Shown: positions 48,862-49,809 of the stretch, in pieces
Layout: each line of letters starts with the position of its first letter
How positions within the stretch are numbered: position 1 is the stretch's first letter
Origin: Escherichia phage YJin-2024a
Reading direction: 5' to 3' (one strand)
Sequence record: PP534475.1
DNA: 64,000 bases
The notes under the pieces: generated by a model
What the model saw: only the letters and a program-made list of their open reading frames with translations
Databases searched by the model: none
Told to the model about the DNA's origin: nothing
Translations under genes and position numbers: made by a program

Positions 48862-49809
48862 TTATTTATTACGCATATCCATAATCATTTGGCCATCGTA
48901 ACCAGTTCCCACTACTGTTTGCGGTACACCACCTTGGTATTTCTGAGCACGAATCATTTCGACTTCCAGTTGTTTCCAACGAATCATCTCAGGAGTAATG
49001 GTACGTTGCAGTGCGGCGTTAGCTTCAGCTTCTTTCTTAGCTGCATACAGTTTAGCATCTGCATCACGTTCGTTAGCAATAGCTTGGTTATTACGAGCTT
49101 CGCGATCTGCTTCTGCTTGTTTAACCTTCTGCTGTGCTTCTTGTTCAACACGAGCCAACTCAGCTTTTGCAGCATTAACTTGCTCTTCACGAACTTTGGT
49201 ATTCTGTACCTGTTCCATGATTACTGGAGGCAGAGTAATATCCTGAAGGAATACCTGCTTAACTGTGTAACCATATGGGCGTGCATACTCTTCAACTTCT
49301 TGTTGAATTGCAGTTTGCAATTGAGCCTGAATTTTAGCATCAAACAAATCTTGTGCTTTAGGTACAGACTTACCAAACTCACGAATAGTAGACAGTAATT
49401 TTTCAGTTACATACTTGTCTAGCGCCTGATCCTGAGTACCTGCGTTAATGCGGTTAATCGGTGCCTTAGAACCATCAAACTGCAACATAACAGTCAGGTC
49501 AACAGTGGATTTAAACTTATCCTGACTAGGAACCTGAAGTTTATCTAATTTTAGAGCAATATCTTTAGTACTAAAAGTATCGAAAGAAGCAAAAGGATTT
49601 ACAATATGAAAGCCGGGTAATACTGGGCTAGGGTCAACTTTACCCAGGAAAGTCTGGGTTTTAACAGTACCGTCTTGAACAACAGTATAGGAGTTAAGGG
49701 CCAGAACTAAACCTACCAAACCAACTGCAGCACCAATACCCCAACGTTTGATATTACGCATCAATTTTTGCTCATAAGTCAGTTCTTTAGTGTTTTTAGT
49801 AGCAAACAT
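48862..49809 (-). CDS. SPFH / band-7 (prohibitin-like) membrane protein
   Basis: N-terminal TM helix, SPFH-like core, Ala/Glu/Gln-rich coiled-coil C-terminus. Confidence 0.65.
   Translation of the reverse strand: MFATKNTKELTYEQKLMRNIKRWGIGAAVGLVGLVLALNSYTVVQDGTVKTQTFLGKVDPSPVLPGFHIVNPFASFDTFSTKDIALKLDKLQVPSQDKFKSTVDLTVMLQFDGSKAPINRINAGTQDQALDKYVTEKLLSTIREFGKSVPKAQDLFDAKIQAQLQTAIQQEVEEYARPYGYTVKQVFLQDITLPPVIMEQVQNTKVREEQVNAAKAELARVEQEAQQKVKQAEADREARNNQAIANERDADAKLYAAKKEAEANAALQRTITPEMIRWKQLEVEMIRAQKYQGGVPQTVVGTGYDGQMIMDMRNK

What the first reader, a model, noticed from the sequence alone, without database searches (positions are those of the whole stretch)
48862..49809. SPFH/band-7 membrane protein behind a long non-coding leader and tRNA-Arg
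A 315 aa protein with an N-terminal TM helix, an SPFH-like core and a charged coiled-coil tail is transcribed convergently with the plus-strand island. It appears to be fed by the promoter at 50716-50744 through about 800 nt of non-coding RNA that includes tRNA-Arg(UCU). SPFH proteins organise membrane microdomains and partner with membrane proteases, and a phage copy could modulate host membrane proteolysis or a membrane-based defence.
Basis: partly seen in the sequence, partly recalled or inferred. Interest (0 to 1): 0.45.

Follow-up and report, generated by a model that had tools for sequence, protein, structure and literature searches.

The report
T5 SPFH gene behind RNAX RNA
This is the already-annotated T5 gene T5.080, a prohibitin/HflC-like membrane protein of unknown role that is wrongly labelled 'lipoprotein'; the long 'leader' in front of it is the conserved, folded stable RNA that the T5 record calls RNAX.

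Summary
A 315-aa ORF lies at 48862-49809(-). It has one N-terminal TM helix, a Band_7/SPFH core (Pfam 63.9 bits, cut-off 23.6) and a long Ala/Glu/Lys/Arg/Gln-rich helical tail. tRNA-Arg(UCU) sits 34 nt upstream. About 790 ORF-free bases upstream of that lies a sigma-70 promoter (TTGCTA-17-TATAAT). The window is a Tequintavirus. The T5 RefSeq record annotates the same layout: promoter P16-17, rnaX ('stable RNA with unknown functions'), tRNA-Arg, T5.080 'lipoprotein', a nick site and a bidirectional terminator. So the finding is already known at annotation level.

New here:
- The protein has no cysteine, so it is not a lipoprotein.
- Its closest solved relatives are the cage-forming prohibitins, QmcA and HflC, and the charge distribution predicts a periplasmic SPFH domain.
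- It is 75-84% identical between T5-like, RB43-like and Privateer-like phages, which indicates transfer between phage families.
- Knock-down in T5 gave no fitness effect.
- The 'leader' is not a plain leader. It has two covariation-supported structured domains, matches no Rfam family, and also occurs in Demerecviridae that lack the SPFH gene.

The function of both the protein and the RNA remains unknown.

The parts
50716..50744 (-). Sigma-70-type early promoter (TTGCTA-17-TATAAT). It is the homologue of T5 promoter P16-17. The inferred transcription start is near 50708.
   Evidence: Promoter scan, 10 of 12 matches. T5 annotates 'promoter P 16-17' and the rnaX 5' end at the homologous place. 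The block 50758-50677 is 79-81% identical even in Sugarlandvirus and Hongcheonvirus.
49919..50708 (-). Homologue of T5 rnaX (T5s08, 'stable RNA with unknown functions'): about 790 nt, no conserved ORF, modular.
   Evidence: T5 annotation. 93% identity to T5 RNAX over 79% of the query (H110). The 44-, 45- and 59-aa ORFs are broken in relatives and the 42-aa ORF lies largely in the dispensable variable stretch. Module map.
50349..50529 (-). RNAX domain 1. A tRNA-like acceptor/T-arm module (Rfam tRNA hit at 50421-50492) is embedded in a 12-bp extension helix with a closing helix, followed by a covarying hairpin.
   Evidence: Rfam tRNA 34.2 bits, cut-off 29. ARAGORN does not call it here, and relatives label it tRNA-Ser(act), tRNA-Sec, tRNA-OTHER or tRNA-Pro. 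RNAalifold consensus. 20 of 41 pairs have changes on both sides, against 6.8 +/- 1.9 in shuffles and 1-5 in slid controls.
50549..50697 (-). Variable stretch of RNAX, absent from T5 itself and several other Tequintaviruses.
   Evidence: Module map: window inter-region positions 56-204 are missing in L011, L013, L018, L021, L024 (T5) and L027.
49919..50213 (-). RNAX domain 2 ('module B'). Eight helices, with invariant cores GGAGUCAUGACC and AUAACCACnAAGUCACCyUGACUUAAACUGGAA. A 17-bp terminal hairpin ends 5 nt before tRNA-Arg.
   Evidence: Alignments. RNAalifold consensus. 20 of 54 and 21 of 54 pairs have changes on both sides, against 6.5 +/- 1.7 and 8.1 +/- 1.6 in shuffles and 2-8 in slid controls. 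Covariance model R1 scores 157 bits in Erwinia phage KEY and 90.7 bits in Klebsiella phage FZ41. Minimum free energy z-score is -2.1.
49844..49918 (-). tRNA-Arg(UCU) with encoded CCA; homologue of T5t25.
   Evidence: ARAGORN. Rfam 49.3 bits. At least 98.7% identical in all 30+ T5-like and Epseptimavirus loci that contain it.
49810..49843 (-). 34-nt spacer between the tRNA CCA end and the start codon, carrying the Shine-Dalgarno AAGGA (49815-49819).
   Evidence: Sequence read directly.
48862..49809 (-). SPFH/Band-7 protein, orthologue of T5.080. Layout: TM helix about 23-41, SPFH domain 41-192, CC1 195-270, CC2 273-290, and a conserved C-terminal GGVPQTVVG segment.
48807..48838 (-). GC-rich hairpin immediately after the stop codon (terminator-like). 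Its 3' arm holds the T5 nick consensus GA|GCGC (nick between 48818 and 48817).
   Evidence: Terminator scan: 13 pairs, then TTCTGTATTT. T5 annotates a 'major DNA single-chain interruption' 44-45 nt past the T5.080 stop. The sequence matches at that offset.
48749..48790 (.). Bidirectional rho-independent terminator shared with the convergent plus-strand genes. The GCCCCT/AGGGGC stem has T-runs on both strands.
   Evidence: Sequence. T5 annotates an 'efficient bidirectional rho-independent transcription terminator' at the homologous place.

Best explanation
The ORF is the orthologue of T5.080, a single-pass inner-membrane protein of the SPFH superfamily. Its closest relatives by sequence profile are prohibitins, QmcA and HflC.

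Shown here:
- It has every architectural element of the cage-forming SPFH proteins: an N-terminal TM helix, an SPFH alpha/beta domain, a long CC1 helix, a CC2 helix, and a conserved C-terminal segment.
- It has no cysteine, so the inherited 'lipoprotein' label is wrong.

Inferred:
- The basic N-terminus puts the N-terminus in the cytoplasm and the SPFH domain in the periplasm, as in HflK/C and, in the topologically equivalent compartment, prohibitins.
- Because it is a single gene with no paralogue or NfeD partner, it probably forms a homo-oligomeric dome on the periplasmic face of the inner membrane that fences off a membrane patch.
- The most likely consequence is altered access of membrane proteins to FtsH-type quality control, or stabilisation of the energised membrane so that lysis is not triggered early. 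It would be an accessory, host-dependent function.

Expression (inferred from layout and the T5 annotation): it is the last cistron of an early transcription unit. The order is promoter P16-17, structured stable RNA RNAX, tRNA-Arg(UCU), SPFH mRNA, hairpin, bidirectional terminator. Excision of the tRNA by RNase P and by 3' processing would release RNAX upstream and leave an mRNA with a roughly 30-nt 5' UTR.

Origin: RNAX plus tRNA-Arg is an older, family-wide unit. The SPFH gene was acquired horizontally and inserted behind it in the Tequintavirus/Epseptimavirus lineage.
For: Identity:
- Pfam Band_7, 63.9 bits. PHROG 200, E=1.5e-85.
- The T5 record shows the same gene order.
- A profile of 50 family members matches PHB2 at 1.7e-17, QmcA at 2.3e-16 and HflC at 3e-12.
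- The AF2 model (pLDDT 78.5) has TM, SPFH, CC1 and CC2. Foldseek matches erlin, prohibitin, HflK/C, stomatin and QmcA cages at E=1e-15 to 1e-10.

Not a lipoprotein: zero Cys.

Topology: the N-flank has 6 K/R (net +4), against 2 K/R (net 0) after the TM helix. Basic residues in the N-terminal segment recur in the family consensus.

Single gene: no NfeD or second SPFH among the neighbours.

Real and selected: codon positions 1+2 are 95-97% identical against 64-82% at four-fold sites.

Accessory: T5.080 is 'Not Fit' in the CRISPRi-ART screen (PMC11879866, supplementary file 16).

Horizontal transfer: 75-84% aa identity to copies in Straboviridae (RB43-like) and Grimontviridae (Privateer), in unrelated gene contexts.

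Transcription unit: there is one promoter and no terminator between it and the ORF, and the tRNA-to-ATG spacer is only 34 nt.

RNAX is older than the SPFH gene: RNAX domains and tRNA-Arg are present in Erwinia phage KEY, Klebsiella Sugarlandvirus and Pectobacterium Hongcheonvirus, which have no SPFH gene there.
Against: - No experiment or transcript data were available. Oligomeric state, orientation and partners are all inferred.
- The window protein matches no HflK or HflC NCBIfam model. Only 20 of 50 distant family members hit hflC, and weakly.
- No conserved partner gene was found across the four phage contexts examined.
- The null knock-down phenotype means a role in core infection is excluded, and any role may be host-specific.
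- The promoter scan is a consensus scan and could miss a weak internal promoter.
- The 17-bp hairpin before the tRNA could attenuate read-through.
Confidence: 0.6

Rival explanations
1. The SPFH protein is a superinfection-exclusion or anti-defence factor. By caging a patch of inner membrane it would block DNA entry by other phages, or blind a membrane-embedded defence sensor, rather than act on proteolysis.
For: - Early-promoter expression.
- Dispensable in a laboratory host.
- Mobile between unrelated virulent phages, as is typical of accessory conflict genes.
- In RB43-like and Aeromonas T4-like phages it sits close to rI/rI.-1, genes that respond to superinfection.
Against: - No PADLOC match.
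- No known exclusion or anti-defence protein is an SPFH protein, to my knowledge.
- No paper in the searched library reports a function for a phage SPFH protein.
- The neighbourhood link to rI is seen in only two of the four contexts.
Confidence: 0.2
2. The SPFH domain faces the cytoplasm (QmcA/YqiK/flotillin-like) and scaffolds cytoplasmic-face processes such as phage replication or assembly sites.
For: QmcA is the best single-sequence PDB match (E=1.9e-6). SPFH orientation cannot be read from the fold.
Against: - The positive-inside rule favours N-in/C-out: 6 K/R before the TM helix against 2 after.
- No NfeD partner is present, although it defines QmcA-type operons.
- The family profile matches prohibitin slightly better than QmcA.
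Confidence: 0.15
3. The 800-nt stretch is decayed tRNA and homing-endonuclease debris that serves only as a 5' leader, and the SPFH gene is its only functional cargo.
For: - The T5 tRNA region is mosaic. Relatives carry HNH endonucleases and small ORFs inserted in this interval.
- One part (50549-50697) is dispensable.
- The embedded tRNA-like element is not a canonical tRNA.
Against: - Two domains show compensatory base changes far above the controls: 20 of 41 and 21 of 54 pairs, against 7-8 expected.
- Domain 2 is more conserved than four-fold degenerate sites of the adjacent gene in seven of eight comparisons.
- Both domains occur in Demerecviridae without the SPFH gene.
- T5 annotators recorded it as a stable RNA.
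Confidence: 0.1
4. The SPFH gene has its own unrecognised promoter inside RNAX or the tRNA and is expressed independently of P16-17.
For: T5 early promoters are numerous and closely spaced in the tRNA region. A consensus scan can miss non-canonical promoters.
Against: - No promoter-like site on the minus strand between 50716 and 49810.
- None is annotated in T5.
- Only 34 nt separate the tRNA from the ATG.
Confidence: 0.15

Closest known systems
T5.080 of Escherichia phage T5 (YP_006908.1) and PHROG 200
   Same: Orthologue, 95% aa identity. It has the same flanks: P16-17, rnaX, tRNA-Arg, gene, nick, bidirectional terminator. Some copies in other T5-like phages are 100% identical.
   Different: Nothing material. 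The 'lipoprotein' product name carried by T5.080 and PHROG 200 is not supported, because the protein has no Cys.
Prohibitin PHB1/PHB2 and E. coli HflK/HflC (FtsH/m-AAA-associated SPFH cages)
   Same: Same domain order: N-terminal TM, SPFH, CC1, CC2, C-terminal segment. They are among the best profile and fold matches. The predicted orientation, with the SPFH domain on the non-cytoplasmic side, is the same.
   Different: - Single gene rather than a heteromeric pair.
- 15-20% identity only.
- No match to the HflK or HflC equivalog models.
- Association with FtsH is untested.
E. coli QmcA-YbbJ (SPFH-NfeD pair)
   Same: Best single-sequence PDB match (E=1.9e-6). Similar length, and forms a homo-oligomeric cage (26 QmcA chains in 8z5g).
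   Different: No NfeD partner gene nearby. The predicted orientation is opposite to that of QmcA.
T5 rnaX (T5s08) and the other T5 'stable RNAs' and 'tRNA-like stable RNAs' of the tRNA region
   Same: The leader is the homologue of rnaX. Like T5 RNA1, RNA2 and RNA3, it contains a tRNA-like element.
   Different: The window copy carries an extra ~150-nt variable stretch that T5 lacks, and lacks an ~85-nt insertion that T5 has in domain 2.
GOLLD and ROOL large structured RNAs of phages (Rfam)
   Same: Large (more than 500 nt), multi-helix, phage-borne non-coding RNA of unknown function, located next to tRNA genes. The resemblance is recalled from the literature and was not tested beyond Rfam.
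   Different: No match to either covariance model or to any other Rfam family at E<=1. No evidence of multimeric assembly. The hosts and phage family differ.

Membership tests
SPFH / Band 7 superfamily (Pfam PF01145) | Match to the Band_7 profile above the curated cut-off | tested here: met
   63.9 bits against a cut-off of 23.6, E=2.5e-17, residues 52-225.
SPFH / Band 7 superfamily (Pfam PF01145) | SPFH alpha/beta fold followed by long coiled-coil helices (CC1, CC2) | tested here: met
   The AF2 model has strands 41-111 and 181-192, helices 113-179, and helices 195-270 and 273-290. Foldseek gives probability 1.00 to erlin, prohibitin, HflK/C, stomatin and QmcA.
SPFH / Band 7 superfamily (Pfam PF01145) | Membrane anchoring through an N-terminal hydrophobic segment | tested here: met
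   Single hydrophobic segment, residues about 23-43. AF2 helix 12-39.
SPFH / Band 7 superfamily (Pfam PF01145) | Assembly into a large ring or cage oligomer | not testable with these tools
   Only monomer prediction was available. The conserved C-terminal segment has low pLDDT, as would be expected if it orders only in an oligomer.
HflK/HflC modulators of FtsH | Match to the hflK (TIGR01933) or hflC (TIGR01932) equivalog models | tested here: not met
   No NCBIfam match for the window protein at E<=1 apart from a spurious SecD hit. 20 of 50 distant relatives hit hflC below the cut-off.
HflK/HflC modulators of FtsH | Two adjacent paralogous genes forming a hetero-oligomer | tested here: not met
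   Single gene. The neighbours are tRNA-Arg upstream and a terminator downstream.
HflK/HflC modulators of FtsH | Periplasmic orientation and binding of FtsH | tested here: inconclusive
   Orientation is predicted periplasmic from the charge bias only. FtsH binding cannot be tested here.
SPFH-NfeD operons (QmcA-YbbJ type) | Adjacent NfeD-family partner gene | tested here: not met
   A Pfam scan of eight neighbouring ORFs found YqeY, DUF7616, Hydrolase_2 and cREC_REC, and no NfeD.
Bacterial lipoprotein (the label given to T5.080 and PHROG 200) | Signal peptide ending in a lipobox with an invariant cysteine | tested here: not met
   The protein contains no cysteine.
T5 rnaX stable RNA | Homologous sequence lying between promoter P16-17 and tRNA-Arg | tested here: met
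   93% identity over 79% of the query to AY543070 rnaX. Model R1 scores 228.7 bits on the T5 locus. Same flanks.
T5 rnaX stable RNA | Accumulates as a stable RNA species in infected cells | not testable with these tools
   Stated only in the GenBank annotation. No paper on it was found.
Canonical tRNA (for the element at 50421-50492) | Complete cloverleaf with a functional anticodon arm | tested here: inconclusive
   - Rfam tRNA 34.2 bits, above the cut-off of 29, but with 18 unaligned bases in the anticodon region.
- Not called by ARAGORN here.
- Called Ser(act), Sec, OTHER or Pro in relatives.
- The acceptor and T stems covary, but the flanks form an extension helix.
GOLLD / ROOL and all other Rfam 15 families (for RNAX) | Match to the family covariance model | tested here: not met
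   cmscan of 48500-51300 at E<=1 returned only the two tRNA hits and sub-threshold chance hits elsewhere.

The most novel reading that the evidence does not exclude
RNAX is an unclassified large structured RNA of Demerecviridae, about 600-800 nt. It has at least two covariation-supported domains. One is built around a tRNA-like acceptor/T-arm module held in an extended helix. It may act in its own right, for example as a tRNA mimic or decoy in the conflict over tRNA cleavage and repair. This is speculatively suggested by the YqeY-like and cREC_REC genes just upstream. The SPFH gene merely uses its transcription unit. Separately, the SPFH protein could be the first phage-encoded periplasmic SPFH cage.
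Probability: 0.4. Interest if true: 0.6.

Novelty: already known. Interest (0 to 1): 0.33.

Why it matters
For the finding as stated, little changes. The gene, the tRNA, the promoter and the long RNA are all in the T5 reference annotation, and near-identical copies exist in hundreds of sequenced phages.

Three points are useful:
1. The 'lipoprotein' name propagated through T5.080 and PHROG 200 is wrong and should read 'SPFH/prohibitin-like membrane protein'.
2. A highly conserved SPFH protein moves between unrelated virulent phages of enterobacteria, Aeromonas and Vibrio. This makes it a tractable model for what an SPFH cage does, in a system where the gene is dispensable and can be deleted.
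3. The 'leader' is a large, conserved, folded RNA with no assigned family. T5 is genetically tractable, so its function could be tested directly.

Tried and rejected
- Lipoprotein (the label in T5 and PHROG 200): rejected, no cysteine.
- Known defence or anti-defence component: no PADLOC match.
- HflK or HflC orthologue: no NCBIfam match.
- QmcA-type SPFH-NfeD pair: no NfeD among the neighbours.
- Protein-coding leader: the 44-, 45- and 59-aa ORFs in RNAX are broken in relatives, and the 42-aa ORF lies largely in the stretch that many relatives lack. Annotators of different phages called different, mutually inconsistent ORFs there.
- Known RNA family for the leader: nothing in Rfam besides tRNA.
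- Paralogues of RNAX domain 2 elsewhere in the window: none. The motif searches were unique, and model R1 gave only an 11.8-bit hit at 62300-62399.
- Wider sampling of domain 2 by pattern scans of IMG/VR and metagenomes returned almost only T5-like contigs.
- Chromosomal context of the Morganella morganii homologue (an isolated gene between an ars operon, TetR and ADH genes and a bacteriocin-type exporter): uninformative.
- Literature: no paper in the held library characterises T5.080, RNAX or any phage SPFH protein. Genome papers say the function in phages is 'poorly understood'.
- Single-sequence fold of the tRNA-like element alone is no more stable than shuffles (z=-0.25). Its support comes from covariation, not from energy.
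Full report
**What the window is.** The 2.6 kb around the finding is 99.5% identical to Salmonella phage vB_SenS_S124. It matches 448 phage records, almost all T5-like Salmonella or Escherichia phages. The records inspected belong to Tequintavirus.

The T5 RefSeq record NC_005859 annotates the same layout, element by element:
- promoter 'P 16-17';
- misc_RNA rnaX (T5s08, 719 nt, 'stable RNA with unknown functions');
- tRNA-Arg (T5t25);
- CDS T5.080, 'lipoprotein ... contains single transmembrane domain';
- a 'major DNA single-chain interruption';
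- an 'efficient bidirectional rho-independent transcription terminator' shared with the convergent genes T5.077-T5.079.

**Check of the observation.**
- The ORF is at 48862..49809(-), 315 aa, ATG start. AAGGA lies 5 nt upstream.
- There is one hydrophobic segment near residues 23-43.
- Pfam Band_7 scores 63.9 bits against a cut-off of 23.6. PHROG 200 scores E=1.5e-85.
- The tail is helical and rich in A, E, K, R and Q.
- tRNA-Arg(tct) is at 49844-49918(-).
- The promoter TTGCTA-17-TATAAT is at 50744..50716(-). No other minus-strand promoter-like site and no intrinsic terminator lie between it and the ORF.
- By homology with the T5 rnaX 5' end, transcription should start near 50708. That gives about 790 nt before the tRNA.
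- The gene is real and under purifying selection. Against six full-length T5-like/Epseptimavirus copies, codon positions 1+2 are 95-97% identical while four-fold degenerate sites are 64-82% identical.

**What the protein is.**
- Single-sequence search of the PDB gives QmcA (1.9e-6) and prohibitin-2 (1.3e-4).
- A profile of 50 diverse family members gives PHB2 at 1.7e-17, QmcA at 2.3e-16, PHB1 at 3-5e-16, HflC at 3e-12, and then erlins and stomatin.
- The AF2 model (mean pLDDT 78.5) shows a TM helix at 12-39, an SPFH alpha/beta domain at 41-192, CC1 at 195-270, CC2 at 273-290 and a low-confidence C-terminal tail.
- Foldseek against the PDB returns only cage-forming SPFH proteins at the top: erlin1/2, PHB1/2, HflK/C, stomatin, QmcA, then flotillin and the major vault protein.
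- The C-terminal segment (KY.GGVPQTVVG) is conserved across the family. My inference is that it becomes ordered only in an oligomer, as C-terminal segments of other SPFH cages do. This was not tested.
- The protein has no cysteine, so it cannot be a lipoprotein. That label has spread from T5.080 and PHROG 200 into many records.
- The N-terminal flank has 6 K/R (net +4), against 2 K/R (net 0) after the TM helix. Basic residues in this segment recur in the family consensus. By the positive-inside rule this predicts N-in/C-out, with the SPFH domain in the periplasm. HflK/C and, topologically, prohibitins share this orientation; QmcA has the opposite one.
- It is not an HflK or HflC orthologue, since no NCBIfam model matches. 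It has no NfeD partner and no PADLOC match.

**Distribution and context.**
- 737 phage records encode a homologue. They include T5-like phages (90-100% aa identity), Privateer-like Grimontviridae (73-76%), RB43-like Straboviridae of Klebsiella, Enterobacter, Cronobacter and Citrobacter (80-85% over the aligned part), Aeromonas T4-like phages (about 63%) and Vibrio phages (23-44%).
- Such high identity across phage families, set in unrelated gene neighbourhoods, points to horizontal transfer.
- Recurring neighbours are genes of lysis or the cell envelope. In RB43 it lies directly after rI and rI.-1. In phiAS4 it is about 3 kb from them. In Privateer and in T5-like phages a SleB-like Hydrolase_2 gene lies within 1-2 kb (window 51435-51902).
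- No partner is conserved in all four contexts.
- An exhaustive search of 1.8 billion cluster representatives finds 910 relatives at E<=1e-3 but only 34 at E<=1e-30, so the subfamily is small.
- Morganella morganii carries an isolated chromosomal copy at 56% identity.
- In the CRISPRi-ART transcriptome-wide screen of T5, T5.080 is 'Not Fit' (PMC11879866, supplementary file 16). It is therefore dispensable in the laboratory host.
- No paper in the searched library assigns a function to a phage SPFH protein. One genome paper states that the function in phages is 'poorly understood' (PMC7760394).

**The 'leader' is a structured RNA gene.** The stretch from about 50708 to 49919 is the homologue of T5 rnaX.

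It does not code for protein. Frameshifts or in-frame stops break the 44-, 45- and 59-aa ORFs in relatives that conserve the nucleotide sequence, including T5 itself; the 42-aa ORF lies largely in the variable stretch that many relatives lack.

It is modular:
- The promoter and 5' end are conserved everywhere.
- A ~150-nt stretch (50549-50697) is absent from T5 and several other Tequintaviruses.
- The remaining ~610 nt (50528-49919) is conserved, at 66-71% identity even in Klebsiella Sugarlandvirus.

Domain 2 (49919-50213):
- It has invariant cores GGAGUCAUGACC and AUAACCACnAAGUCACCyUGACUUAAACUGGAA, and several hairpins with visible compensatory changes.
- On 20 sequences, 20 of 54 pairs show changes on both sides, against 6.5 +/- 1.7 in column shuffles (0 of 500 reach it) and 2-7 when partners are slid. 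95% of cells are paired, against about 40% when slid.
- After adding Erwinia, Klebsiella and T5 copies through a covariance model, the figure is 21 of 54 against 8.1 +/- 1.6.

Domain 1 (50349-50529):
- It contains the element that Rfam scores as tRNA (34.2 bits, 50421-50492).
- ARAGORN does not call it here. Other annotators call it tRNA-Ser(act), tRNA-Sec, tRNA-OTHER or tRNA-Pro.
- The consensus fold shows acceptor-like and T-arm helices that covary.
- The flanks of the 'tRNA' also pair, forming a 12-bp extension helix and a further closing helix. The element is therefore embedded in a larger fold rather than free-standing.
- 20 of 41 pairs show changes on both sides, against 6.8 +/- 1.9 in shuffles and 1-5 when slid.

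Caveats on the covariation evidence:
- The structures were derived from these same alignments.
- Alignment A4 is fitted to the model.
- The sequences are related.
- The measure that counts pairs is the one the tool reports as rarely inflated by relatedness.

Other evidence on RNAX:
- Domain 2 is also more conserved than four-fold degenerate sites of the adjacent gene in seven of eight comparisons.
- No Rfam family other than tRNA matches.

**Order of events in evolution.**
- Erwinia phage KEY, Klebsiella phage FZ41 (Sugarlandvirus) and Pectobacterium phage DU_PP_V (Hongcheonvirus) share the arrangement cell-wall hydrolase, then tRNA-like element, then RNAX sequence, then tRNA-Arg. None has an SPFH gene after the tRNA.
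- All Tequintavirus and Epseptimavirus loci examined have tRNA-Arg (at least 98.7% identical) followed by the SPFH gene. Several Epseptimaviruses have a 66-aa ORF in between.
- The simplest reading is that RNAX plus tRNA-Arg is ancestral to the family, and the SPFH gene was inserted at the 3' end of that unit.

**How it most likely works.**

Shown:
- an SPFH-superfamily protein with the full domain set of the cage formers;
- a single gene;
- an early-type promoter about 900 nt upstream, with no intervening promoter or terminator consensus;
- a tRNA with encoded CCA 34 nt before the start codon.

Inferred:
- One early transcript carries RNAX, tRNA-Arg and the SPFH mRNA. RNase P and 3' processing excise the tRNA. 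This frees RNAX and leaves an mRNA with a short 5' UTR. Transcription ends at the hairpin at 48838-48807 or at the bidirectional terminator near 48790-48749.
- The protein inserts N-in/C-out and forms a homo-oligomeric dome on the periplasmic face of the inner membrane.

What the dome encloses is unknown. I rank the options as follows:
1. HflK/C- or prohibitin-like control of FtsH-type membrane proteolysis, or general stabilisation of the energised membrane.
2. Exclusion of other phages or evasion of a membrane-based defence.
3. A cytoplasm-facing scaffold.

**Verdict.** As a discovery it is already known: every element is annotated in T5, and the sequence is near-identical to many deposited phages. 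The residual value lies in the corrected annotation, the prohibitin-like and probably periplasmic assignment, the evidence for transfer between phage families, and above all the finding that the 'leader' is a conserved, multi-domain structured RNA without an assigned family.

Noticed in passing
window 48807-48838 (nick between 48818 and 48817): The hairpin just after the SPFH stop codon carries the T5 nick consensus GA|GCGC in its 3' arm. It sits at exactly the offset where T5 annotates a 'major DNA single-chain interruption'.
   Followed up: partly
window 51890-52207(-) and 50753-51196(-): The T5.084 homologue is a cREC_REC 'cyclic-phosphate processing receiver' domain protein (E=1e-14). The T5.081 homologue is weakly YqeY-like. 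In Proteus phage Privateer the SPFH gene follows an RtcB ligase and an ATPase. So genes with an RNA-repair flavour recur next to the SPFH gene and RNAX.
   Followed up: no
window 51435-51902(-): A 155-aa SleB-like cell-wall hydrolase (Hydrolase_2, E=3.8e-25) with what reads as an N-terminal signal peptide (judged by eye, not predicted with a tool). It is conserved upstream of RNAX in all Demerecviridae examined, and lies within 1 kb of the SPFH gene in Privateer.
   Followed up: partly
window 47051-48745(+): The convergent plus-strand island has three ORFs: 350 aa with GGFGG repeats and Gln-rich stretches, 138 aa that is very Gln-rich, and 64 aa that is Cys-rich. None has a Pfam match. The homologues T5.077-T5.079 are 'Not Fit' in CRISPRi-ART.
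   Followed up: no
window 50753-51196(-) versus L011, L013, L014, L019, L024, L027: The T5.081 homologue exists as two allelic forms, about 100% and about 50-57% aa identity to the window copy, among otherwise near-identical Tequintaviruses. This is local mosaicism right next to the RNAX promoter.
   Followed up: no
L024 (T5) about 2700-2790; corresponds to window about 50040: T5 itself has an ~85-nt insertion inside the AAGUCA/UGACUU hairpin of RNAX domain 2. It is flanked by a direct repeat GTCACCTTGAC(T/A)TAAACTGGAA.
   Followed up: no
window 50515-50529 and 50200-50213; 50388-50396 and 50141-50150: Both RNAX domains begin with AGUGGG(G/A) and contain GAUAAC and AACCAC motifs in the same order. 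This hints that the two domains are diverged tandem copies.
   Followed up: no
L047-L050 (Morganella morganii contigs): A chromosomal, apparently non-prophage orphan copy of the phage-type SPFH gene (56% identity, 196 member sequences). It has long intergenic flanks and lies near an ars operon and a bacteriocin-type ABC exporter.
   Followed up: partly
L053, L055, L056, L057 (Epseptimavirus loci): Between the T5.081 homologue and the SPFH gene, Epseptimaviruses carry extra inserts: an ORF annotated as a homing endonuclease, a ~170-aa ORF, and a 66-aa ORF between tRNA-Arg and the SPFH gene. The interval is therefore a hotspot for insertions.
   Followed up: partly
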